Source of the DNA: Acidobacteriota bacterium
GTDB lineage: Bacteria > Acidobacteriota > UBA890 > WLXD01
Reading direction: 5' to 3'
Assembly: GCA_012103255.1 (NCBI GenBank)
Contig: WLXD01000003.1
Coordinates: 141,984 to 205,983, forward strand
Length of the DNA: 64,000 bases
Part shown: piece after piece, positions 25,581 to 35,111 of the stretch
Position numbering within the stretch: position 1 is the stretch's first letter
Layout: every line of letters starts with the position of its first letter
Notes under the pieces: generated by a model
Seen by the model: the letters and a program-made list of their open reading frames with translations, nothing else
Database searches by the model: none
What the model was told of the DNA's origin: nothing
Position numbers and translations under genes: made by a program

Positions 25581-25664
25581 CGCCGGAGTGGTGGAATGGC
25601 AGACACGCGGGATTCAAAATCCCGTGGGCTTTATGCCCGTGTGGGTTCGAGTCCCACCTCCGGT
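25581..25664 (+). tRNA. tRNA-Leu (anticodon CAA), class II with long variable arm
   Basis: Hand-folded cloverleaf: acceptor GCCGGAG/CTCCGGT, D-arm, anticodon stem CGGGA/TCCCG with loop TTCAAAA (anticodon CAA), 17-nt variable stem-loop GGGCTTTATGCCC, T-arm GTGGG-TTCGAGT-CCCAC, discriminator A. Confidence 0.85.
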
Positions 25665-25752
25665 ACTTATGCGATGAGCGGCATCGGAAAACGCGACGCT
25701 AGCGGTTTCTCCCACAGCAAGTTCCGCGCGACTTCGCCGAAGGAGAAACAGG

Positions 25753-26223
25753 ATGCCGAAACCCATCCGCTACTCACTTGTCTCGATGCTCGGTGTCGGC
25801 CTGGTGGCCACGTGGCAGGCATTCAATGTCGGAGTCGAGTCGGGTGCTGAGCAGGCGTTCCAGGAGAACTCAACTTCGGCCGCCGAGCCGGACTTTGTCG
25901 GTCATTGGGAGGGCTCGATCGCAGGGGTAATCACGCTCGTCTTTCACATCACGGAATCGGACGGGACGTACTACTCGACGCTCGATGTTCCGCAGCAGGA
26001 CCTGGCTGGACGGGTCATGGACAGCACCACGATCGATGGGACGAAGCTTCGCATCACGTTCGATCTGATAGGGGGCGTCTTCGCGGGCGAGATGCTGGAT
26101 GACGGCACGATAGCGGGGACCTGGCGCCAAGCGCATGGAGGCGACCCGTTTGCCCTGAATCTCCGGCAGCGGGGTAGCGAGTCGTTGGCGCCCGCCGAGG
26201 CGCCGGGCCGCGTCCCGGGCTAG
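25753..26223 (+). CDS. secreted hypothetical protein
   Basis: 156 aa with an N-terminal hydrophobic signal/anchor. No motif recognised. First gene after the tRNA. Confidence 0.5.
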   Translation: MPKPIRYSLVSMLGVGLVATWQAFNVGVESGAEQAFQENSTSAAEPDFVGHWEGSIAGVITLVFHITESDGTYYSTLDVPQQDLAGRVMDSTTIDGTKLRITFDLIGGVFAGEMLDDGTIAGTWRQAHGGDPFALNLRQRGSESLAPAEAPGRVPG

Positions 26224-26355
26224 AAGGGATCCCCCGCCTCGCCGCGGTGGTGGCTTGCACCACGGTGTCGCACGCTGACCACGAGCGCGACGACCTGGTC
26301 AGCGAACCGCTGCCTGCACCTCGCACGAGTAGAAAGCGCTCTCGTGGATACTCAA

Positions 26356-27264
26356 CTAGCCCACGAACCCGCCCCTGACGGCGCGCACGCCGTAGGCCCA
26401 GAAGCCCTCCAGGTCCGGCGGGAACCTACTGATTTCTCCGGCCCGCTGGCGCGAGCCGTGCGTCTTGTGCGTCTTGTACAGCAAGAACAGACCGAGATTC
26501 TTCATTGTCTGGTCGCGTTCTGTCGCCGCTTCCTTCTCTGCGACGGACTCGAGCACAGCAATCGCGAGATCCGGCGCTTCTCTCATCATCACAAGCGCGG
26601 CACCGTATCTCACTGCATTCTTGATCGACGGGACGTCGTGGTAGCTCGCCCTTAGCTCGTTGAGCTTGGGTTCGATTTGCTCCACCGATCGGGTCCACAT
26701 CGCGGCCCGCTGAGCTGGCGATGACCGGGGCGGCAGTACGTCCGTTTCCGATAGCGCCATCGTTATAGCGACGTGAACGTAGGTTTCAGGTGCCCAGAGG
26801 GTTTCTTCGGCTGAGTCACGGCTATGGCTAACGACCCCGCCGAACAGAAGGGCGATCAGCGCCGTGATGGCAGCAGCCCGCATCGAGGGAAGCGGCTTGT
26901 AGTGCGTCGGCGCGGACGCGGGCGTTGCCTCGGGCGTCGGCGCGTGAGGCGTGAACAGCACGCCACGGCCGTGCAAGGTGCGAAGGAAGACCGGGGCTGC
27001 AGCCGTCTCGCCAAGAGCGCGCCTCAGCAGATGGACGACTTCGCAGATCGACTGGTCGGCGACCGCGGTTGCCGGCCAGCACGCTCCGAGTAGCTCATCC
27101 TTCGTGATCGGGCGGTCCGGGTTCGCTAGCAAATAGCTCAACACGCGGGCGCATCGGGGGTCCAGGTCAACCCGACCATCAGCTCGATGAAGCGACCCCG
27201 TCAGCGCGTCGAACTCCATGTCTCCAACGCGTGATCGTAGAGCCTTGTCCGATCCGTTCTGCAT
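26356..27264 (-). CDS. CadC/ToxR-like membrane-bound transcriptional regulator (OmpR-type winged helix + TM + periplasmic helical/TPR-like domain)
   Basis: The N-terminus …LDPRCARVLSYLLANPDRPITKDELLGACWPATAVADQSICEVVHLLRRALGE… matches the Trans_reg_C winged helix. One TM helix (AAITALIALLFGGVV) is followed by a helical periplasmic region. Confidence 0.65.
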   Translation of the reverse strand: MQNGSDKALRSRVGDMEFDALTGSLHRADGRVDLDPRCARVLSYLLANPDRPITKDELLGACWPATAVADQSICEVVHLLRRALGETAAAPVFLRTLHGRGVLFTPHAPTPEATPASAPTHYKPLPSMRAAAITALIALLFGGVVSHSRDSAEETLWAPETYVHVAITMALSETDVLPPRSSPAQRAAMWTRSVEQIEPKLNELRASYHDVPSIKNAVRYGAALVMMREAPDLAIAVLESVAEKEAATERDQTMKNLGLFLLYKTHKTHGSRQRAGEISRFPPDLEGFWAYGVRAVRGGFVG

Positions 27265-27478
27265 GGCAACGGTTCTATCACACCAAGCGCGGAGCCTGCG
27301 GGAACCACGGGGGAGCCGCCAAAACTAAGAAACCACTAAGGACTTTCTAGCCCCGATCGCGCACGGTCCGTGCCACCAATCCATTACTACAGACGGGGTC
27401 GCGCAGAAGGGGTTCGCGTGCTCGACGGCACGCTCCAGTCCACCCGCCCCGTCAGGCAGCTATGCCGGAGGTTTTGCG

Positions 27479-27733
27479 ATGGCCGAAACGAGAATCGCCG
27501 ACCGAAACGACGACTATACGACCGTGGCAGATAGGGCCAACCGAGTGGGCTGTGACTGCTGTTGCACGGACGCCGTCGCCCGCGTCCTTTGCTGCTGGAT
27601 GCAGACCGATGAAGGCAGCCAGGGGAATCGCGACAACACGGCCGAGTTCGCGAGCCAGTTGATGGCGGCCCTTGGGTGCGATCCGCAAGCAGTATCGAAG
27701 AGTCGTCGCGCTGATGACTGCGACATCGACTAA
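27479..27733 (+). CDS. small acidic Cys-rich hypothetical protein (possible partner/antitoxin of downstream RelA/SpoT-domain gene)
   Basis: 84-aa ORF preceded by GGAGG 6 nt upstream. Its TAA stop lies within the RBS (GGAGG) of the next gene. Contains a CDCCC…CC cluster. The coding call is uncertain. Confidence 0.25.
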   Translation: MAETRIADRNDDYTTVADRANRVGCDCCCTDAVARVLCCWMQTDEGSQGNRDNTAEFASQLMAALGCDPQAVSKSRRADDCDID

Positions 27734-27745
27734 CGGAGGCACAGC

Positions 27746-28708
27746 ATGAGTCTCCCGTACCGGTTTCTGTTTGGCGCTTTCTTCGCAGTCTTGCCGGCGT
27801 CAGTTGGTCTTGGCCAGGAGACCGCGCAGGCACCGCAAACCGCGAGCGTTTCACAGGAGGTGCTCGCGCCGGTGACCGTCGCGCGTCGCCTGTCCTCAGC
27901 CAACACCATCAACTGCAAGCTAGGGGACTACGCGACGGCCGACTTCTTCGCCCTTCCTCCCGACGAGCAAGACCTGTTCCTGACCGAGTTCCGGGCTAAG
28001 TACGCGGCCACGCTGCGCGCGACGCGCGATGCGCTACGCGCCCTACTGCCCCGGCCCGTTTACATGGTGTCATTCCGCCTGAAGACGTCGGTGAGCATCA
28101 AGGAGAAGATCACCCGCAAGGGCTACAGCTGCTTCTCCCAGTTCTCCGACATCGTGGGCACACGAGTGATCGCTCCTGCGTACGCCTCGTTCGGGGCCAT
28201 CCAGCGAACGATCACCGACACCTTCGATGTCGCCAAGGCCGAGAACCTACTCGACGACAAGCCCGGCGGTGGCTATCGCGCCCTGCACTATGACGTGATA
28301 GTGCTGGGGCGCAAGGCCGAGATCCAGGTCATGACGCGCAGGATGGCCGCCTTCACGGAGAGTTCTCATCCACTCGCGTACAAGGGGCCGTACGCGGAGC
28401 CGAATGACCCGTCGAAGGACACTCCGGAAGCCAAGGCTGTCCGCGGGTATCTGAAGAAACTGGGCGATGCGATTCACGAACTGGATAGAGGCAACTCAGC
28501 TACTCTGCCCCCGATCCCCGCGACTCTCCCGGACGACGCCCAGGAGCGGCTCAACAAGACAATGGTTAAGCTTGTCTCGCTGAGTTCCATCGATCCAATC
28601 ACGCCGCTTACGTTCGCGGAGATCTTCGTCAACCCGGCGCTTGCTCTGCTTGAGTTCTACGCGCTAGACGAGTTCCTTCCCATCGCGCTGATCGAGCAGG
28701 AACAATAG
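27746..28708 (+). CDS. RelA/SpoT (RSH) nucleotidyltransferase-domain protein, toxSAS-like, with signal-peptide-like N-terminus
   Basis: …RLKTSVSIKEKITRKGY…DIVGTRVI…GGYRALHYDVIVLGRKAEIQVMTRRMAAFTESSHPLAYKG… matches the RelA_SpoT synthetase core (D-x-G-R-V, GY(R)xLH, EIQ(V/I)xT, YK). There is no HD hydrolase domain. N-terminus MSLPYRFLFGAFFAVLPASVGLGQE. GGAGG RBS 7 nt upstream. Confidence 0.75.
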   Translation: MSLPYRFLFGAFFAVLPASVGLGQETAQAPQTASVSQEVLAPVTVARRLSSANTINCKLGDYATADFFALPPDEQDLFLTEFRAKYAATLRATRDALRALLPRPVYMVSFRLKTSVSIKEKITRKGYSCFSQFSDIVGTRVIAPAYASFGAIQRTITDTFDVAKAENLLDDKPGGGYRALHYDVIVLGRKAEIQVMTRRMAAFTESSHPLAYKGPYAEPNDPSKDTPEAKAVRGYLKKLGDAIHELDRGNSATLPPIPATLPDDAQERLNKTMVKLVSLSSIDPITPLTFAEIFVNPALALLEFYALDEFLPIALIEQEQ

Positions 28709-28854
28709 CCGCAATTGCCAGGTTCCGCGGCGCACATGCAACCTATCTCGCCTGTGCGCGCGGCGAGAGCCCGAAACTTCCACAATCTCCTACACACTTC
28801 CACAAGTTGTGCAGAAAACTCTTTAAATATAGATATCTAAGAGTGCAGGCACAG

Positions 28855-28908
28855 GATTCAAAATCCCGTGGGCGCAAGCCCGTGTGGGTTCGAGTCCCAC
28901 CTCCGGTA
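28855..28908 (+). repeat. direct repeat = truncated 3' portion of tRNA-Leu(CAA) (attR-like), copy 1
   Basis: 54 nt identical to the tRNA from the anticodon loop to the discriminator, except the variable-arm loop (gcaa vs tttat). Confidence 0.85.
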
Positions 28909-29113
28909 CTAATATTTTCGACGACTTACCTCGTTGCCGAACAACGCTTGGACAACCGGAGCCTGGCGCGCCGCCGGATCGGACCCTGGTACGCAGAGGT
29001 CGGATCTCGTAGGGTCGTCTGCGACGCTTGTACGCGGCTTCACTGCTAGCCTGGCCGGTACCCCGTCAGCCCTCCGACAAGGGGCCGGCCGTCGGCGTTC
29101 GGCCGACCTGGAG

Positions 29114-29956
29114 ATGCGAAACATGGCGGACGACACCCCCCCGTCGATCGAGCAGATTCGCGAATGGCTGGCCCACGAGAGCATGTCTGGGTATGGCTTG
29201 ATGCGCCGCTGCACGTGGCCGGGAAGGAAGCCCGCCGTAGAGCTTCTCTACATCATCGACAGCACCGGGGGAGAACAAAGCCGGAAGCACCGAATGTCCC
29301 ACGACCACTATCGCTGGGTCACCCGGATGTTCTGGCGCTCTCGTCGCCTGTACGAGGCAATTCTCTTTCTTCTCGATGCCGCTCAGCCCGAAGAAGCGGC
29401 AATCCTGGCGCGCTCGTTGTTTGAGGACAGCATGCGTCTAATGGAGCTCGCTGAGGACGAAAACAAGCGCGACGCCCGGATCATCTGGTGGATGAACGAC
29501 TCAATTCAGCGAGCGTTCAACCTGCAGAGGGGGGATCCGGCATTTGAAGTCGAGGACAGACTCATACTTTCACGCCACGAGTTGGAGGGGCGGCGGGCGG
29601 GCCTGCAAAGGTACGCTGCGTACCACGGCGTGACCAAGTACGAGAGGTTCAGTTCGCCCAAGGACGCGGCTACCCGGTTTGATCGGAAGATGTCCTATTC
29701 CCTGTACATGTGGGCGCATCAAGCGACGCACGGGAACGACGCCGTTTGGGGAGTCGCAGCCGTGAAGCGGCCGGAAGGCGGCGAACTCCTGAATGCGAAG
29801 ACAGCGGATGTCCTGTGGCTCAAGATGGTGGCCAACTTTGCCATCCAGGCAGTGTTCGATGCCATGATCGCCGCCGCCTCAGTGCTTGGATGGGCAGTGC
29901 CAGAAGAAGCGTTCTCGAAACTCGACGAGTACCAGCAAGCTCGCGACGAGCAATAA
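29114..29956 (+). CDS. hypothetical protein (all-alpha, no recognised domain)
   Basis: 280-aa ORF; alternative ATG at 29123. No motif I can name. Confidence 0.5.
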   Translation: MRNMADDTPPSIEQIREWLAHESMSGYGLMRRCTWPGRKPAVELLYIIDSTGGEQSRKHRMSHDHYRWVTRMFWRSRRLYEAILFLLDAAQPEEAAILARSLFEDSMRLMELAEDENKRDARIIWWMNDSIQRAFNLQRGDPAFEVEDRLILSRHELEGRRAGLQRYAAYHGVTKYERFSSPKDAATRFDRKMSYSLYMWAHQATHGNDAVWGVAAVKRPEGGELLNAKTADVLWLKMVANFAIQAVFDAMIAAASVLGWAVPEEAFSKLDEYQQARDEQ

Positions 29957-30687
29957 CCGGTGCCCCGGCGGCCAGGAGGCGTGCCTGGACATCGCTTCTG
30001 CGAGCGGTCGTCGGGATCTCGGTCTCGTCGTCTAGTCAGCATCGCGCAACGTCTCTTCGAACTGCTGTACTTCCAGCCTTCGGAGCCGGTGCTTCGAGAC
30101 TCGTTGCGCCAACTGCGCCGCTGACCCAACGCCAGCCTCAATCTGGCTCGTTGGTGGCGAGTCGGAAACATAGGGGCGCCGTCGAGCCGTCTGTGCACTT
30201 GCCCTCGTTATCCCGGCGCTCTAGTTGCCGTGCCGTGCCAATCTTGAAGTAGTCGGCGTCGGCCGTGCGGCCGCGCCGGAGCCCAGGACCAGGGGCTGGC
30301 CCCACGGGCCCACCGCCGCATGCTCGACATCGCGAAGGGCTCTTTCGTGTACCGGATAGTGCGGCCGTCCACGCGTAGTGCGTCTTCGGCCTCCGATCCT
30401 TCTTCGTAGCGCGTGATCAAGATGGTATCCGCCCGGTCACCTATCAGCATGAACAGGGCAACTCTTGGGCCCCGCCACACCGCTCGAAGCCTCTCCGGTG
30501 TTCCGGCGGCGTGCGGTGCGCACATGGTGCCTGTAGTGGCCCGCGCAACTCTGGCTGCCATCGTCGGGCCAGCCGGCGGCTGTCCGCTGCCGCTCCGAAG
30601 CTGAACGGCTCGCGGGGTCCCAGACGCTCACCAGGGTGCAGCTCGCTCCCGCTGCCGTCGATCAGGACACTGCGGCCCGCCGGCAGA

Positions 30688-31275
30688 TCAGCGGTGTCCG
30701 TCCGCAGCGCCAGTGCCCGGCGTAGGGAGTACCGGTTCGTCGTCCATGACGTCGTTCTGGTTGAGCAACGGAACAATTAGCACGTCCCCGTTCGTAAAGA
30801 CCTTGGCGTCCTTTCTCGCCAACGTTGCTTTGTAGTGGTAATTGCCTACGCGTTGAACCTCGAAACTCGCACCGTCCTGCGTGCTTTCGTACTCAACGAA
30901 GTCCTTTCCGCCTTGGCTTCTCTTCCATTTGTCCTGCTCAAACTCGATCCATCTGTAGCGCATGATTCGCGCCCGCTGAGGCTCAGGTTTCGGTTCGGGC
31001 GGGTTCTCGAGATACTTGTGGCGCTCTGGCAAATGCACAGCGAATCCATCGACCCAGATACGCGCGTCGTTCACCTCGTACCACTCCGAACCGAGACCGG
31101 CACGAGGGTAGATCTGCAGGCGACTGTTCTGGTAGTCGCCTGCCCGCCAAGAGAAGGCGCGATCATACGGCCGACCCGGACCATTCTCGTCCCACCCCTT
31201 GAGGCTGCCGTCCTCTTTGTGGGTGCCCCACAGAACCACCTCTACGAATCTATGGCAGAACAAAGCCAGGTCCAT
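30688..31275 (-). CDS. hypothetical protein
   Basis: 195-aa ORF, divergent from the TIR gene. Charged and aromatic-rich (…WYEVNDARIWVDGFAVHL…). No recognised domain. Confidence 0.5.
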   Translation of the reverse strand: MDLALFCHRFVEVVLWGTHKEDGSLKGWDENGPGRPYDRAFSWRAGDYQNSRLQIYPRAGLGSEWYEVNDARIWVDGFAVHLPERHKYLENPPEPKPEPQRARIMRYRWIEFEQDKWKRSQGGKDFVEYESTQDGASFEVQRVGNYHYKATLARKDAKVFTNGDVLIVPLLNQNDVMDDEPVLPTPGTGAADGHR

Positions 31276-31544
31276 CTCGTCCCTCCATGGTCGTTTGAGC
31301 GAATGCAGCTAGAACCCGCGCCGGGTTCCCTTTCCGACAACTGCACAGGCGCGCCTATTCAAATTGGTCTCGTTTCGTCGCCAACTGCTCGAGACCGCTG
31401 CGCGTGGGAACGATCGTCGAGGGCTCCCGCTCCCCGCAGGGCATGTAGCGTTGACGTCAAAGTTCCCATATAGTTCCCTCATGGGAGTCGGGATGCGGAT
31501 CGTGGGAAATGGTGAAGTGTAGGAAGTGTTCGCAGGAGGCCGGT

Positions 31545-33137
31545 ATGAGAAGGGATAGGGGCGGGCTTGTGGTTGATCTAGCGGCAGAACTGGAAACCCT
31601 GATGAAGGCCGGAGGGGTGAAGGGCTACGTCAAGGCGAGCGAAGCGCCTATCCTCGGCGTCTGTGCGGAGCACTCTGGCCGCGATCAAGAGCCTCGGCAA
31701 GCGCTGGAGGCGCTCGTGCGATCCGCGATCGCGAGGATCGACGCCGGCCAGGACCGGGAGGCCCTGACTGAACTGTTCCTGGCACCCACGGGCGATCAGT
31801 CGCTGGCCGCACGCGGAGCGAAGGCGGCCGAACACTTTGACATCAGCTACGACGCGCTCCGCCGTCGGAACGATCAAGGCGTCCGGCGAATCGATTCGCT
31901 GTTGGAGCAGCTGGCGGCGAACGTCAACCGCGTCTGTCCGCTGGATGATCTTCTCGGTGACGCAGGGTATCGAGGGGCTTCGCTCGACCCGGGGCCCGGT
32001 GCAGTGAGTCGAGCGCAAGTCTTTCTGAGCTACTCGCACCACGATGATGCGCACGAAGGCGGCCTAGTTTCCTCGCTTCGAGACGCCCTGATCCGGGAGT
32101 TCCGTTTTCAGACCGGCCAGGACCTTCGCGTGCTCCATGACAAATCCGGGATTGAGTTCGGCGAGGACTGGCGGCGGAAGATCGAGGATTTGCTAAGCCA
32201 GACCAGCTTCCTACTCGTGATCCTTACGCCATCGTTTCTGACGAGCGAGCAGTGCCGGGCCGAGTTGGCGAGGTTTCTGCAGCATGAGCGGGCACGAGAC
32301 CGAGATGACCTCGTATTGCCGATCTACTACGCCCCTGTGGATGAGGACGCGGAGGACCACCTCGTAGCGGCATTGCTTGCGCGCCAGTACGTGGACTGGC
32401 GAGGGTTGCGGTTCCTGGACTTTGGTTCTCCCGAGATCAGGATGGCAGTTGCCAAGCTGGCGACGTCTGTCGCCGCTGCACTTGGACGCCGACCCGAGCC
32501 GGTCGAGACTCCGACAGACGACGTTTCCCCGACAGAACTCGGCACGGTTGAGCACTTCGCGAAGATGCAACTCGCGCTTCCTCGGGTCATCCGCGGCATC
32601 GCGACATTCACGAGTGAGCAAGAGGGCGTTGGGAACGAGTTTCGGCAGACTACGGAGCAGCTGAACAGGTTGAACCAGAGCGGCCAGGGAGCTGCTTCGC
32701 AGCTGTTCGTTGCGACTCAGCTGCGGTCGAGGCTGGAGCCCTACGCAGACCGGATGGAGGGGATCTCAGCCGGCGTCCGTGAGGACCTTGAGCTGATCAA
32801 AGGCGGCATCCACGCGATCGCGGCTGAACTTCCAGACTCTCAGGAGGCGGGGCTCGAGGAGACGACGCTCGGTATGCTCGACGCTATCCGCGAGTCGCTA
32901 GGTGCGATGCAGGATGCCGAGGACAGCGTCGAGGAGTTCGCCGACGTGGCCACAGGGCTAGGCCAGAAAACCTCGACGCTGAGGCCTGTGCTGAATCGAA
33001 TCGTGGCGTCCGCTCGCTTCGTCCGCACTTGCAAGGAGCGGTTCGCGCAATGGCTTGGCATTCTTGAACAAGCCCTGGACGACTGGCGGAGAAAGGCTGC
33101 GTCCGTTCCGCCGCCCGAGGACGAATCCCAGCGGTAG
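31545..33137 (+). CDS. TIR-domain protein with N-terminal helical (HTH-like) region and long C-terminal coiled-coil/helical domain
   Basis: …AQVFLSYSHHDDAH…GQDLRVLHDKSGIEFGEDWRRKIEDLLSQTSFLLVILTPSFLTSEQCRAELARFL…LVLPIYYAPVD… is the canonical TIR pattern, including the Glu in the …SEQCRAEL… block. AGGAGG RBS 5 nt upstream of ATG 31545; an in-frame upstream ATG exists at 31509. Confidence 0.8.
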   Translation: MRRDRGGLVVDLAAELETLMKAGGVKGYVKASEAPILGVCAEHSGRDQEPRQALEALVRSAIARIDAGQDREALTELFLAPTGDQSLAARGAKAAEHFDISYDALRRRNDQGVRRIDSLLEQLAANVNRVCPLDDLLGDAGYRGASLDPGPGAVSRAQVFLSYSHHDDAHEGGLVSSLRDALIREFRFQTGQDLRVLHDKSGIEFGEDWRRKIEDLLSQTSFLLVILTPSFLTSEQCRAELARFLQHERARDRDDLVLPIYYAPVDEDAEDHLVAALLARQYVDWRGLRFLDFGSPEIRMAVAKLATSVAAALGRRPEPVETPTDDVSPTELGTVEHFAKMQLALPRVIRGIATFTSEQEGVGNEFRQTTEQLNRLNQSGQGAASQLFVATQLRSRLEPYADRMEGISAGVREDLELIKGGIHAIAAELPDSQEAGLEETTLGMLDAIRESLGAMQDAEDSVEEFADVATGLGQKTSTLRPVLNRIVASARFVRTCKERFAQWLGILEQALDDWRRKAASVPPPEDESQR

Positions 33138-33598
33138 GCACGAGGGCCCGGGCGCGCTCCTGGCCAGCCCCGCGGATCACAGGTGCTTGAGACCCACGGT
33201 CTCAACAGTATTCCCCCCAATCGTCGGCCAAGATGTTGCTCGATTCCTGAACCAGGAATCGAATGGCGCCGGGGGCGCCGCAACACCTCGGCCCGACTCC
33301 GTGGTGATTGGTGGAGCCTCAGCGAAATCCCGCAGCCGTCTCTCCATCTCGGCAGGACGGAATTGACACGGAGTCGGGGTTGGTGCCCGACGATTGGGGG
33401 GAATCACAAACCTAAGGAACGCAACGACTTAGGTTTGTTCTTGAGCTTCCGGTAGGTATTCGTTTCCTGAAACGAATAGGCAGGTGGAGATCTCGACCGT
33501 GCAGCCGGCGAGAACCCGAAACTTCCACAATCTCTTGCGCACTTTCGCAGTGCGGAGATTTTTCTTCTTTATTTATAAGTATTTAGATCAGGCATCAT

Positions 33599-33655
33599 CG
33601 GATTCAAAATCCCGTGGGCTTTATGCCCGTGTGGGTTCGAGTCCCACCTCCGGTA
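33599..33655 (+). repeat. direct repeat = truncated 3' portion of tRNA-Leu(CAA) (attR-like), copy 2
   Basis: 57 nt identical to the tRNA 3' part (cggattcaaaatccc…cctccggta), including the variable loop. Confidence 0.85.
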
Positions 33656-33730
33656 TTTTGGAGTCGAAGCGTCGCAAGGCGGTACCAGGGGACGACGGAG
33701 GGCAACTCGGTGTCGTGGGGAATCAGCTTT

Positions 33731-34171
33731 CTAGTCGAGCACGTTCGCCCGAGACGGGCCCGACACGAAGACCAGGCTTCCCGCCACGCCGCTCAGAAAC
33801 AGCGCTGAGGTCAAGTAGAACAGCCCTTCGATCGATTCGAGTGCGTCGCTGAGTGTCAGTCCGGCGCCGACGCTCATCGCCGACGCGACCCCGATGAGCA
33901 CCACGAACAGAGTCGTGGCGAGCGCGGTGATGGCCAGAGAGAATCTCGCGGCTGTGCCGAGTTCCGTCTTCAACGCCAAGCTCACCAGTCGCAGACCTCC
34001 GCCGAACAGAAGCGCGAACAACAGGATGCTGATGTGCTCGAATGGCGTTCCCTTCAGGAACCCGCTCAAGAACATCAGGACGAAGAGCACGATCAGCCCC
34101 CAGACCACCGCGCGGATTCGTCTGCGTTCGTTGTCGCGGCTAGGCCCTTTCTTCTGGTTCGCGCCCATCAT
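33731..34171 (-). CDS. small hypothetical membrane protein (4 TM helices)
   Basis: 146-aa hydrophobic ORF (MMGANQKK…). The ORF finder's 460-aa extension is spurious. Confidence 0.4.
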   Translation of the reverse strand: MMGANQKKGPSRDNERRRIRAVVWGLIVLFVLMFLSGFLKGTPFEHISILLFALLFGGGLRLVSLALKTELGTAARFSLAITALATTLFVVLIGVASAMSVGAGLTLSDALESIEGLFYLTSALFLSGVAGSLVFVSGPSRANVLD

Positions 34172-34390
34172 CAAGCCTCCAGGACGTGCCTGCCGGTCGC
34201 CGGCACGATCGTCAGGCGTTCCCATCGAGTAACGGTTGACGACGTCAACATTACATTTCGATGTTGTCGGCGTCAACATATGCACTCCGACCTTCCGCGC
34301 CTTCGGTGCGCGGTTCCGCAACTGGCGAGCCACGACGATGCCCCCGCGGGTGCCTGGACACTGCCTGGGCTCAGGTTCGAAAATAGTGCG

Positions 34391-34954
34391 ATGGACGACG
34401 CACGCGTGAGGGAACTGATGCGGTCGGCGTGGGCCAAGCGCCGGTCTTCCTTCGATGCCACCCCTACGGATTGTCGGTCCCTGCTCGCCGCTGCGAAGCA
34501 GGAGTTGACCGAGGCGTCCGAACTGTCTCGGTCCACGGGCGGCGCGACGTATGCGCAGGCGATCCACTTGCTCGCGAACGTCGAGGTCGACCTCGACGAG
34601 CCGGGTCGTGCCCGACGGCTGTGGGAGGAGGCAATCGCAATACTCCGAACCACCGACGACGTTCTGGAGCTGGCCCATAAGCTGCGGCACCTCGGAGACC
34701 TGCACCATCGCGCCGAGCGGCTGGCGGCGGCGGCGGCTTGCTACGACGAGTCGCTGCTGATCTATCGAGAGCACACGGGGCCGGGCAGCCTCGACTTTGC
34801 CAACGCCGTCAGCCGCGCAGCCGAGCTCCAGGAGCGACTCGGAGAACGGGCGGAGGCGGCTCGGTTGTGGCGCGAGACCCGCGACCTGTACGCCTCGGTG
34901 AACCTGCCGGCCGGCGTAGAGCAGGCCGAGCGCCGTTTGCAGCGGCTGCGCTAG
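34391..34954 (+). CDS. TPR-like repeat protein
   Basis: 188 aa. Helical repeats with alternating A/L-rich pairs (…AQAIHLLANVEVDL…, …AAACYDESLLIYRE…, …AEAARLWRETRDLY…). Confidence 0.45.
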   Translation: MDDARVRELMRSAWAKRRSSFDATPTDCRSLLAAAKQELTEASELSRSTGGATYAQAIHLLANVEVDLDEPGRARRLWEEAIAILRTTDDVLELAHKLRHLGDLHHRAERLAAAAACYDESLLIYREHTGPGSLDFANAVSRAAELQERLGERAEAARLWRETRDLYASVNLPAGVEQAERRLQRLR

Positions 34955-34970
34955 CGCGATCGTGCCCCCA

Positions 34971-34993
34971 TGGGTTCGAGTCCCACCTCCGGT
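34971..34993 (+). repeat. direct repeat = 23-nt 3' end of tRNA-Leu(CAA) (T-loop to discriminator), copy 3
   Basis: gggttcgagtcccacctccggta is identical to 25642-25664. It lies 16 nt after the TPR gene stop. Confidence 0.75.
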
Positions 34994-35111
34994 AGCTAGA
35001 ACATTCGCTCGCTGATTCCGGCGCCCCCTGTCGGCAGCATCGTCGTCTGCAACGTGTAGCATCACGGATTCCGAAACTGCGCAGCACGAAGCGCTAAACC
35101 AGGGAGTCCGC

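What the first reader, a model, noticed from the sequence alone, without database searches (positions are those of the whole stretch)
31545..33137. TIR-domain protein with N-terminal helical region and long C-terminal coiled-coil: candidate stand-alone anti-phage NADase effector
The central ~135 aa carry the canonical TIR pattern (VFLSYSHHDD … W…I … SFLLVILTPSFLTSEQCRAELARF … LVLPIYY), including the Glu of the SxxCxxEL block that is catalytic in bacterial and plant TIR NADases. Bacterial TIR proteins are established components of anti-phage systems (Thoeris ThsB, TIR-STING, TIR-SAVED and others). Here the TIR is flanked by a ~160-aa N-terminal region (HTH-like or sensor?) and a ~240-aa C-terminal helical/coiled-coil domain that I cannot assign to any known family. 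It sits between att repeats with two orphan genes (29114-29956 and the divergent 30688-31275). There is no SIR2/macro (ThsA-like), STING or SAVED partner nearby. This domain combination and neighbourhood may be an undescribed TIR-based defense module.
Basis: partly seen in the sequence, partly recalled or inferred. Interest (0 to 1): 0.85.

Follow-up and report, generated by a model that had tools for sequence, protein, structure and literature searches.

The report
Rare three-domain TIR protein on tRNA island
The gene is real. It encodes a TIR-domain (NAD-cleaving type) protein of a rare, undescribed three-domain family carried on a decayed mobile island; it is probably an anti-phage suicide enzyme, but this copy lacks the small membrane-peptide gene that normally precedes it.

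Summary
Window 31545-33137(+) is an intact 530-aa gene in an Acidobacteriota MAG. The TIR call holds: Pfam TIR_2 at 53.7 bits, TIR fold matches, and an invariant Glu240 aligned to the catalytic Glu of AbTir and AtTIR.

The protein has three conserved domains separated by variable linkers:
- an N-terminal helical module resembling sigma-factor region 4 (HTH), shared with about 90 other protein clusters, mostly membrane-anchored;
- the TIR domain;
- a C-terminal bundle of four long helices found only in this family.

The family is rare (about 25 sequences). It was absent from the phage, plasmid, IMG/VR and GTDB-representative collections searched.

The two "orphan" neighbours are not conserved partners. 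Homologues sit in changing mobile or defence-rich contexts (restriction genes, HEPN, Thoeris remnants, DUF4062, integrases).

What is conserved is upstream. All 12 loci share a promoter carrying TCCCA/TGGGA operator-like half-sites. In 9 of 12 a leaderless small ORF follows, encoding a 52-67-aa membrane peptide that abuts or overlaps the TIR start. The window retains the motif but only a 13-codon remnant.

Best reading: an autoregulated, abortive-infection-type NADase. This is a candidate, not a demonstrated system.

The parts
31545..33137 (+). Gene for the 530-aa three-domain TIR protein (P0001; NCBI NKB88814.1 in its 542-aa form)
   Evidence: ORF. Homologue alignment and start codon. Shine-Dalgarno sequence AGGAGG at 31534-31539. 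Exact protein found in public assemblies.
31545..31961 (+). N-terminal helical domain (aa 1-139) with an HTH-like motif, R90-G-x2-A-A...Y102-D-x2-R-R-R. It resembles sigma-factor region 4.
32007..32489 (+). TIR domain (about aa 155-315)
32262..32264 (+). Codon for Glu240, the putative catalytic residue (S-x-x-C-x-x-E-L)
   Evidence: Translation. Invariant in the family. Aligned to the Glu of AtTIR CLDEL and AbTir NYEL.
32541..33104 (+). C-terminal domain (aa 333-520): four long helices, restricted to this family
   Evidence: AF2 helices at 334-379, 383-431, 437-473 and 477-520. The profile search returns only family members. PDB and Pfam give only generic helical matches. Mean identity is 52%, with invariant polar residues.
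31451..31494 (+). Conserved promoter/operator-like element. TTGACG lies at 31451-31456 and TATAGT at 31469-31474 (spacer only 12 nt here). The core TCCCATATAGTTCCCTCATGGGA lies at 31464-31486.
   Evidence: Sequence. Unique in the window, with 0.01 matches expected by chance. The same element is aligned in 12 of 12 family loci, where the -35 and -10 hexamers are mostly 17 nt apart. TCCCA/TGGGA half-sites sit at fixed positions -17, -6 and +1: 34 were seen against 1.3 expected, and 12 of the 34 are the anchor itself. No canonical sigma-70 promoter is called in the window copy.
31481..31522 (+). 13-codon remnant (MGVGMRIVGNGEV*) of the small upstream ORF. In 9 of 12 homologous loci that ORF encodes a 52-67-aa hydrophobic hairpin peptide.
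   Evidence: Translations. Peptide alignment. Maximum Kyte-Doolittle 19-mer hydropathy is 2.1-2.9; the small-ORF stop overlaps the TIR start by 4-26 nt; pN/pS is 0.34-0.59. The three loci without the ORF are not monophyletic.
28853..28911 (+). Copy of the tRNA-Leu 3' part (left att of the island that carries the TIR gene)
33600..33658 (+). Copy of the tRNA-Leu 3' part (right att of the island), preceded by a P-arm-like repeat at 33490-33549 that is 82% identical to 28745-28804
29123..29956 (+). DUF5677 protein: co-resident cargo of the island, not a conserved partner
   Evidence: Pfam DUF5677, 39.7 bits. Absent from homologue loci.
30688..31275 (-). 195-aa protein with no detectable family, divergent from the TIR gene. 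Not a conserved partner.
   Evidence: No hit in Pfam, PADLOC, NCBIfam, PHROGs or PDB. Absent from homologue loci.

Best explanation
The gene encodes a cytoplasmic, self-contained sensor-effector protein of a rare, uncharacterised TIR family carried as cargo on mobile islands.

**Shown**
- There are three conserved domains: an N-terminal module resembling sigma region 4 (HTH), a TIR domain with an invariant catalytic-type Glu240, and a family-specific four-helix C-terminal domain. Variable linkers join them.
- The gene lies on an island bounded by tRNA-Leu att copies, with no integrase gene called within about 10 kb either side.
- Homologues have no conserved protein neighbour. They lie repeatedly next to restriction, HEPN, Thoeris, DUF4062, toxin-antitoxin and recombinase genes.
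- All family loci share a promoter with TCCCA/TGGGA half-sites over the -10/+1 region.
- Most loci carry a leaderless small membrane-peptide ORF that abuts or overlaps the TIR gene start.

**Inferred**
- The TIR domain is an NAD+ glycohydrolase, kept inactive in uninfected cells.
- A phage- or mobile-element-derived cue, sensed through the C-terminal and/or N-terminal domain, drives oligomerisation. TIR NADases need this to form the composite active site. NAD+ collapse and abortive infection follow.
- The HTH module binds the TCCCA/TGGGA operator and autorepresses the operon, keeping the enzyme dose low.
- The small membrane peptide is an accessory: an anchor, inhibitor or co-effector.
- In this window that peptide gene has been deleted and the -35/-10 spacing is aberrant, so this copy may be weakly expressed or decaying.
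For: - **TIR identity and fold:**
- **Catalytic Glu:** invariant, and aligned to the Glu of the AbTir and AtTIR NADases.
- **Domain structure:** three conserved domains joined by variable linkers.
- **N-terminal domain:** HTH-like and modular, with partners including a transmembrane helix plus LGFP-like ectodomain, Xre HTH and REC-like domains.
- **Island:** tRNA-Leu att copies and lower GC, 0.60-0.62 against about 0.64-0.68.
- **Neighbours:** none conserved.
- **Defence or mobile contexts of homologues:**
  - L011: HEPN_Swt1, EcoRI-type methylase plus GmrSD/HNH, integrase, DUF4062-HEAT.
  - L012: Mrr_cat.
  - L015: ThsA_Macro, ThsB_TIR, PIN_12, transposases.
  - L004: PIN toxin, HTH_17, serine recombinase.
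- **PADLOC:** the best hits are TIR defence candidates or components (PDC-S66, TIR-SAVED, ThsB), over the TIR region only.
- **Upstream element:** conserved promoter/operator and small ORF.
Against: - No enzymatic or phage data exist for any family member.
- The defence link rests on guilt by association in only four informative contigs. The other contigs are too short to judge.
- The window's own neighbours are not recognised defence genes, apart from a weak PDC-S33-like RelA/SpoT protein on the adjacent island.
- The aromatic residue four positions before the catalytic Glu (Trp in AbTir and plant TIRs) is not conserved here.
- AF2 confidence for the TIR domain is only moderate, pLDDT 53-78.
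- Operator binding by the N-terminal domain is untested. The one N-domain paralogue examined lacks the motif upstream.
- The window copy lacks the small ORF and a canonical promoter spacing.
Confidence: 0.55

Rival explanations
1. The unit is a toxin-antitoxin-like addiction or stabilisation module of mobile elements. The small upstream peptide and the TIR protein would form an autoregulated pair. Its main role would be to maintain the element (post-segregational killing through NAD+ loss), with phage defence at most a side effect.
For: The layout is a small first gene abutting or overlapping a larger second gene, with an HTH and a palindromic operator at the promoter. This is the classic type II TA design. 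The unit sits on integrative or recombinase-bearing elements.
Against: The first gene encodes a hydrophobic membrane hairpin, unlike proteinaceous type II antitoxins. Three independent lineages, including the window, keep an intact TIR gene after losing the small ORF. At least one of them (L015) has a near-consensus promoter. That is hard to reconcile with an essential antitoxin.
Confidence: 0.15
2. It is a one-component transcription regulator. The HTH domain would be the output, and the TIR and helical domains would serve as NAD-sensing, ligand-sensing or oligomerisation modules. On this reading it is not an immune effector.
For: The N-terminal domain is HTH-like. It is shared with membrane-anchored, ToxR-like architectures and with Xre and REC-like fusions. 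An operator-like motif lies at its own promoter.
Against: The TIR domain is the most conserved part, and its catalytic-type Glu is invariant. The family has a patchy, rare, island-borne distribution and no conserved regulated neighbour. The motif occurs once in the 64-kb window.
Confidence: 0.12
3. It is a Thoeris-like signal generator. The TIR domain would make a cADPR-isomer or related nucleotide signal for an effector encoded elsewhere in the genome.
For: There are weak ThsB and Thoeris type III ThcB4 profile hits. The closest solved relatives, AbTir and 7uxr, are TIRs known from the literature to produce cyclic ADPR isomers (the product chemistry is from my own knowledge). One homologue lies near ThsA/ThsB remnants.
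Against: No ThsA-type, SLOG, Macro, caspase-like or other conserved effector lies next to any family member. The ThsB hits fall far below family thresholds and cover the TIR core only. The Trp linked to cyclisation in AbTir is not conserved.
Confidence: 0.06
4. In this particular genome the gene is a decaying, silent remnant of a once-complete two-gene system on a degraded island.
For: No integrase is called on the three tandem att-bounded segments. The small ORF is reduced to 13 codons. The -35/-10 spacer is 12 nt, against 17 nt in most homologues, and no canonical promoter is called.
Against: The 530-codon ORF is intact. Every family-invariant residue is retained and the Shine-Dalgarno sequence is strong. 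The identical protein occurs in at least 18 contigs from several samples. Two other lineages also lack the small ORF.
Confidence: 0.25

Closest known systems
Bacterial TIR NADases AbTir (A. baumannii; PDB 7uwg, 8g83) and the TIR protein of PDB 7uxr
   Same: These are the closest solved sequences to the family profile (E=4e-5 to 6e-3). The BB-loop region (D..i.lGe.wr.ki) and the catalytic Glu align. All have an extra non-TIR region N-terminal to the TIR domain.
   Different: Identity is low and confined to about 75-110 residues. The Trp four residues before the Glu is not conserved here. AbTir-type proteins lack both the sigma-region-4-like N-terminal domain and the 190-aa C-terminal helical domain.
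Thoeris ThsB (types I-IV)
   Same: Both are TIR-domain proteins found in defence islands. There are weak profile hits: PADLOC ThsB1 at 8e-6 and NCBIfam ThcB4 at 0.014.
   Different: No ThsA or other effector gene is adjacent in any locus. This protein has 530 aa and three domains. The scores fall far below the family cut-offs.
PADLOC candidate PDC-S66 (single-gene TIR candidate, unvalidated)
   Same: It is the best PADLOC hit, E=9.7e-11. It is also a single-gene TIR candidate with a non-TIR N-terminal part.
   Different: The match covers only the TIR core: query 169-274 against profile positions 149-242 of 282. The profile has no counterpart for the N-terminal or C-terminal domain.
FxsC (TIR-like protein of the FxSxx-COOH system, NCBIfam NF040588)
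   Same: It is the best NCBIfam hit, E=6.9e-9, over the TIR region.
   Different: The score is 35.9 bits against a cut-off of 130. No radical-SAM, FxsB or NTPase context is present.
Single-protein, sensor-fused NADase defence effectors (for example DSR2 with SIR2, CRISPR-associated Cat1 with CARF-TIR, and DUF4062 'Swarozyc/Evangelion')
   Different: The sensor domains differ. No CARF, HEAT or alpha-solenoid domain is present here. This family adds an HTH module, a conserved operator and a small membrane-peptide gene.
Sigma-70/ECF sigma region 4 and small HTH regulators (FocB/PapB, KorA)
   Same: These dominate the fold matches for the N-terminal domain model. Its sequence pattern R..AL..LF...(loop)..RG..AA..LGI.YDALRRR resembles a region-4-type HTH.

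Membership tests
TIR domain superfamily (Pfam TIR_2 PF13676 / TIR PF01582) | Profile match above the curated gathering score | tested here: met
   TIR_2 scores 53.7 bits against 28, and TIR scores 26.1 against 21.3. All homologues carry the same precomputed domains.
TIR domain superfamily (Pfam TIR_2 PF13676 / TIR PF01582) | Flavodoxin-like alpha/beta TIR fold | tested here: met
Catalytic (NADase-type) TIR domains | Conserved catalytic Glu in the alpha-C helix (..xxEL) | tested here: met
   Glu240 is invariant in 15 of 15 members. It aligns to the Glu of AtTIR CLDEL and of AbTir/7uxr YEL.
Catalytic (NADase-type) TIR domains | Aromatic residue (Trp) four positions before the catalytic Glu, as in AbTir and plant TIRs | tested here: not met
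   The position is variable in the family (Gln in the window), while Cys at position -3 is invariant. This residue is not universal among active TIRs (my own knowledge), so the result argues against the subtype, not against activity.
Catalytic (NADase-type) TIR domains | Measured NAD+ cleavage that depends on oligomerisation | not testable with these tools
   This needs recombinant protein, an epsilon-NAD or LC-MS assay, and an E240A control.
Thoeris | ThsB-type TIR protein matching the family model | tested here: inconclusive
   PADLOC ThsB1 gives E=8e-6 over the TIR core only. NCBIfam ThcB4 gives 14.3 bits against a cut-off of 220.
Thoeris | Adjacent ThsA-type effector (SIR2/SLOG, Macro/TM or caspase-like) | tested here: not met
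   None lies within about 10 kb either side in the window. None is conserved in any homologue locus.
CBASS/Pycsar/type III CRISPR TIR effectors (TIR-SAVED, TIR-STING, CARF-TIR) | Fused SAVED, STING or CARF sensor domain and a neighbouring cyclase or Cas10 | tested here: not met
   There are no such Pfam or PADLOC domains. The SAVED_TIR hit (E=3.6e-6) covers only the TIR part, profile positions 13-105 of 404. No cyclase is nearby.
PADLOC PDC-S66 | Full-length match to the candidate's profile | tested here: not met
   Only profile positions 149-242 of 282 (the TIR core) are matched.
Type II toxin-antitoxin / Abi two-gene module | Small upstream gene translationally coupled to the toxin gene, with an autoregulated promoter | tested here: not met
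   In the window the upstream ORF is a 13-codon remnant. In 9 of 12 related loci the arrangement is present, but the small product is a membrane peptide. Autoregulation is untested.
Integrative genomic island at a tRNA gene | Direct repeats of the tRNA 3' end flanking foreign DNA | tested here: met
   There are three extra copies of the tRNA-Leu 3' part. Copies 2 and 3 have related P-arm sequences. GC content dips across the segment.
Integrative genomic island at a tRNA gene | Cognate integrase gene on the island | tested here: not met
   No integrase or recombinase domain appears among the genes called from 21.5 to 43 kb. This fits a decayed island.

The most novel reading that the evidence does not exclude
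The family would be a new two-gene TIR immune system: a leaderless membrane hairpin peptide plus an HTH-TIR-helical-bundle protein. Its sigma-region-4-like N-terminal domain would be more than an autorepressor. It would act as a sensor, for example a decoy for phage anti-sigma factors that target sigma region 4 (AsiA- or ORF67-like), or a detector of invading DNA. Engagement would release or oligomerise the TIR NADase at the membrane. That would be a bacterial 'integrated decoy' analogous to those in plant NLRs.
Probability: 0.1. Interest if true: 0.8.

Novelty: new variant of a known kind. Interest (0 to 1): 0.5.

Why it matters
TIR NADases are a shared immune currency of bacteria, plants and animals. 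Each new way of wiring a TIR domain to a sensor shows how these enzymes are held in check and then triggered.

This family offers a compact, testable case:
- a single polypeptide that appears to combine DNA binding, an NADase and a conserved helical domain;
- a precisely conserved operator-bearing promoter;
- a membrane-peptide partner that nature has deleted at least three times.

If the defence role is confirmed, the family would add a new single- or two-gene TIR system from poorly sampled phyla (Acidobacteriota, Actinomycetota). The N-terminal domain family, about 90 clusters that are mostly membrane-anchored proteins with LGFP-like ectodomains, would also gain a first functional handle.

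If the defence role is not confirmed, the locus is simply one more unannotated TIR protein on a decayed island.

Tried and rejected
- **The two neighbouring genes as partners: rejected.** An all-against-all BLASTP of ORFs from five loci shares only the TIR protein. Annotated neighbours differ in every locus.
- **More relatives in species-representative genomes:** the protein-pattern scan found none. The DNA-motif scan returned three identical, unrelated palindromic loci.
- **Relatives in other collections:** phage records, none. IMG/VR, none. Plasmids, one TIR-only hit in Agrobacterium.
- **Assigning the C-terminal domain:**
  - The word-index profile search found only family members.
  - The PDB sequence profile gave only apolipoprotein or coiled-coil noise.
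  - Pfam at E up to 10 gave only sub-threshold helical families. These included Rx_N and SesA at E about 0.08, which I treat as noise.
- **The small peptide as a wider family:** the search returned only the two gene calls already known.
- **The operator motif upstream of an N-domain paralogue (L016):** absent. One case is not informative.
- **The AFDB50 fold library** was unavailable.
- **Rfam** finds no RNA element in 31200-33700.
- **Literature searches** found no description of this architecture: PDC-S66, HTH/TIR architectures, and TIR with helical bundle or small membrane protein.
- **The 542-aa start at 31509: rejected** in favour of 31545, on homologue alignment and the Shine-Dalgarno position.
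Full report
**1.

The plus strand carries an ORF from 31509 to 33137.
- the alignment of 14 homologues begins there;
- AGGAGG lies at 31534-31539, five bases upstream;
- one public gene call uses this start (P0001), although NCBI record NKB88814.1 uses the 542-aa form.

That NCBI record is labelled 'TIR domain-containing protein [Acidobacteriota bacterium]'. The window comes from GCA_012263325.1, contig WLWH01000003.1.

Residues of about 155-315 match Pfam TIR_2 (E=3.8e-14, 53.7 bits against a cut-off of 28) and Pfam TIR (26.1 against 21.3). Glu240 (TSEQCRAELARF; codon 32262-32264) is invariant in all 15 family sequences.

In HMMER alignments Glu240 sits opposite the Glu of AtTIR '..WCLDEL' and of the bacterial NADases AbTir and 7uxr '..W..YEL'. 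From published work on plant and bacterial TIRs, which I recall rather than tested here, that Glu is the catalytic residue.

One deviation: the Trp four residues before the Glu in AbTir and plant TIRs is a variable residue here, while Cys at position -3 is invariant.

**2. Anatomy of the protein**

Pairwise identity within the family falls into three conserved blocks separated by variable linkers:

| Region | Mean pairwise identity |
|---|---|
| N-terminal domain (aa 5-139) | 47% |
| TIR domain | 69% |
| C-terminal domain (aa 333-520) | 52% |
| Linkers | 19-26% |

The C-terminal domain is predicted as four long helices: 334-379, 383-431, 437-473 and 477-520. It has many invariant polar residues (EQEG, RLNR.GRG, LEPYA.RME). 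That suggests a specific binding or assembly surface rather than a generic coiled coil. I could not link it to any family:
- the profile search returns only family members;

A profile of this domain, searched with HMMER against 1.84 billion representative proteins, finds 96 clusters:
- Seven are the TIR family.
- Fifty-six are proteins of about 450-600 aa. The three read in full (P0026, P0027, P0030) have the domain followed by a Pro/Ala-rich linker, one transmembrane helix and an extracytoplasmic region; LGFP repeats are detected in 15 of the 96 scanned.
- Others pair it with fn3-like ectodomains, two Xre HTHs, or a REC-like domain.
- A repetitive HTH protein (P0050) matches profile positions 93-113 eight times, which marks that stretch as the HTH.

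The N-terminal region is therefore a modular cytoplasmic domain, probably DNA-binding, shared with ToxR-like membrane-anchored architectures.

**3. Genomic setting**

tRNA-Leu(CAA) lies at 25582-25666. Its 3' part recurs at 28853-28911, 33600-33658 and, in shorter form, 34963-34994.

Copies 2 and 3 are preceded by related sequences (28745-28804 and 33490-33549, 82% identical). This is what the P arms of two related integrative elements would look like. GC content dips to 0.60-0.62 across 28-34 kb, against about 0.64-0.68 elsewhere. No integrase is called between 21.5 and 43 kb.

The TIR gene therefore sits on the middle segment of three tandem, decayed tRNA-Leu islands. It shares that segment with a DUF5677 gene (29123-29956) and a 195-aa gene with no detectable family (30688-31275, minus strand).

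**4. The neighbours are not partners**

The family is small. The word-index search found about 15 full-length relatives at 44-50% identity, and the exhaustive search added a few more clusters. Nearly all come from metagenome assemblies, and one is labelled Actinomycetota.

Relatives elsewhere:
- none in GTDB species representatives;
- none in phage records or IMG/VR;
- none in plasmids, apart from one TIR-only hit.

I retrieved twelve distinct loci. An all-against-all comparison of ORFs from five of them shares only the TIR protein. Annotated neighbours differ everywhere.

The informative long contigs are mobile or defence-rich:
- L011 carries HEPN_Swt1, an EcoRI-type methylase with GmrSD/HNH, a tyrosine integrase and a DUF4062-HEAT protein next door.
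- L012 has an Mrr_cat nuclease.
- L015 has ThsA_Macro and ThsB_TIR split by a transposase, plus PIN_12 and a methylase-HNH.
- L004 has a PIN toxin, HTH_17 and a serine recombinase.

This pattern is typical of defence cargo, but it rests on only four contigs.

**5. What is actually conserved lies upstream**

All twelve loci share a non-coding element. It consists of a TTGaca-like -35 hexamer, a spacer (mostly 17 nt) ending in TCCCA, a TAnnnT -10 hexamer, and then TCCCA(C/T)(A/G)TGGGA(G/A).

TCCCA/TGGGA pentamers occupy fixed positions -17, -6 and +1. In total 34 were seen where 1.3 were expected. Twelve of those are the anchor itself, and the remaining 22 are still far above expectation.

The palindrome TCCCA-N2-TGGGA plus a direct half-site 11 nt upstream overlaps the -10/+1 region. 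That is the layout of an autorepressor operator.

The A/G-TG inside the palindrome lies 6-7 nt after the -10 hexamer, which implies a leaderless mRNA. In 9 of 12 loci it opens a small ORF of 52-67 codons; in L004 the ORF is reached only in a shifted frame. The peptide has:
- a basic N-terminus;
- two hydrophobic segments around a conserved S/Q-P turn;
- a GLRS motif.

Its best 19-residue Kyte-Doolittle hydropathy is 2.1-2.9. Its stop codon overlaps the TIR start by 4 nt (ATGA, GTGA or TTGA) in four loci. pN/pS among the three closest pairs is 0.34-0.59. This is a real, translationally coupled membrane-peptide gene that gene callers usually miss.

The window keeps the motif at 31464-31486, where it is unique in the 64 kb. 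But the ORF is cut to 13 codons (31481-31522), and the TTGACG/TATAGT spacer is only 12 nt. No canonical promoter is scored.

L014 and L015 have also lost the ORF. The three ORF-less proteins are scattered in a neighbour-joining tree, so the losses were independent.

**6. Mechanism**

*Shown:* a TIR domain of the catalytic type, two further conserved domains, mobile or defence-rich context, a conserved operator-like promoter, and a coupled membrane peptide in most relatives.

*Inferred:* the protein is an NAD+-consuming abortive-infection effector whose activation requires oligomerisation. That requirement is established for SARM1, plant TIRs, AbTir and Cat1, and I cite it from my own knowledge. 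Oligomerisation probably goes through the C-terminal helical domain. The HTH module autorepresses the operon at the TCCCA/TGGGA site. The membrane peptide is a dispensable accessory.

I put this at 0.55. The rivals are:
- a TA-like addiction module (0.15), weakened by three independent losses of the small ORF alongside an intact TIR gene;
- a regulator that uses the TIR domain as a sensing or assembly module (0.12);
- a Thoeris-like signal producer with a remote effector (0.06);
- not exclusive of the others, that this particular copy is silent or decaying (0.25).

**7. Comparison with known systems and novelty**

The closest solved relatives are the AbTir and 7uxr NADases. The closest library models all match the TIR core only and fall well below family thresholds: PADLOC PDC-S66, NCBIfam FxsC_Nterm and ThsB. 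The defining partners of Thoeris, CBASS, Pycsar, STING and SAVED are absent.

I found no description of this architecture in the literature I could search. DUF5677 is reported as enriched beside defence-marker serine recombinases. A DUF5677 ORF was among nine tested there, and it is not named among the five that protected (PMC12632615).

I class the finding as a new variant of a known kind. It is a TIR-based candidate defence gene with a new domain combination and a new conserved cis/small-ORF context. Interest is moderate at 0.5. The TIR call and the island are ordinary. The conserved operator, the leaderless membrane peptide and the sigma-region-4-like module are new and directly testable, but function is unproven and the window's copy is incomplete.

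Noticed in passing
window 31451-31522; L004, L006, L008, L010-L015, L017, L018 upstream of the TIR genes: A promoter/operator element (TCCCA/TGGGA half-sites) is conserved in 12 of 12 loci. A leaderless small ORF (52-67-aa membrane hairpin, abutting or overlapping the TIR start) is present in 9 of 12 homologous loci. The window keeps only a 13-codon remnant and has a shortened -35/-10 spacer.
   Followed up: yes
window 25582-34994: Three integrase-less segments lie in tandem, each bounded by copies of the tRNA-Leu(CAA) 3' end (25610-25668, 28853-28911, 33600-33658, 34963-34994). Copies 2 and 3 share P-arm-like upstream sequence. This suggests successive integrations by related elements, followed by decay.
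   Followed up: partly
window 27746-28708 (+) and 26356-27264 (-): The first island segment carries two genes. One is a RelA/SpoT-like nucleotidyltransferase (Pfam RelA_SpoT 4e-12; PADLOC candidate PDC-S33 2.6e-10) with a signal-peptide-like hydrophobic N-terminus. The other is an OmpR/CadC-type winged-helix protein (Trans_reg_C). Together they may be a small-alarmone-synthetase toxin-type or defence candidate.
   Followed up: no
window 33210-33230 and 33384-33404: A 21-nt inverted repeat (95% complementary) bounds about 195 bp between the TIR stop codon and the right att copy. It occurs nowhere else in the window (0.01 expected by chance). It may be the remnant of a MITE-like or other small element.
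   Followed up: partly
P0026-P0111, e.g. L016 1456-2955: The N-terminal domain defines a wider undescribed family of about 90 clusters. Most share a common C-terminal part; the three I read in full are single-pass membrane proteins with a Pro-rich linker and an extracytoplasmic region, and LGFP repeats are detected in 15. These look like ToxR-like signal transducers, probably actinobacterial.
   Followed up: partly
L011 12000-14354 (-): Next to the most divergent TIR homologue lies a 784-aa gene with DUF4062 (faint) and HEAT repeats. DUF4062 was recently reported as a TIR-like NADase defence family (2026 bioRxiv preprints listed). Two NAD-targeting candidates therefore sit side by side.
   Followed up: no
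L015 16293-19164: A Thoeris pair (ThsA_Macro and ThsB_TIR) is separated by a Transposase_mut gene in the same variable region as a TIR-family homologue. It appears to be an insertion-disrupted Thoeris locus.
   Followed up: no
L020, L021, L022 (genome contigs): The motif scan hit the same sequence in three MAGs assigned to different phyla: Anaerolineales, Chloroflexi CFX2 and Gammaproteobacteria. The sequence is identical across all the stretches compared, including the long ORFs up to about 3 kb downstream of the hit. The hit itself is a perfect palindrome, TATCCCATACCCTTCCCACATGGGAAAGGGTATGGGA. This looks like cross-assembly contamination or a promiscuous element, and it is unrelated to the TIR family.
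   Followed up: partly
window 33731-34168 (-) and 34418-34954 (+): The third att-bounded segment holds a 145-aa multi-pass membrane protein and a TPR protein (TPR_12/TPR_10, just below the cut-offs). Neither has a defence-library hit.
   Followed up: no
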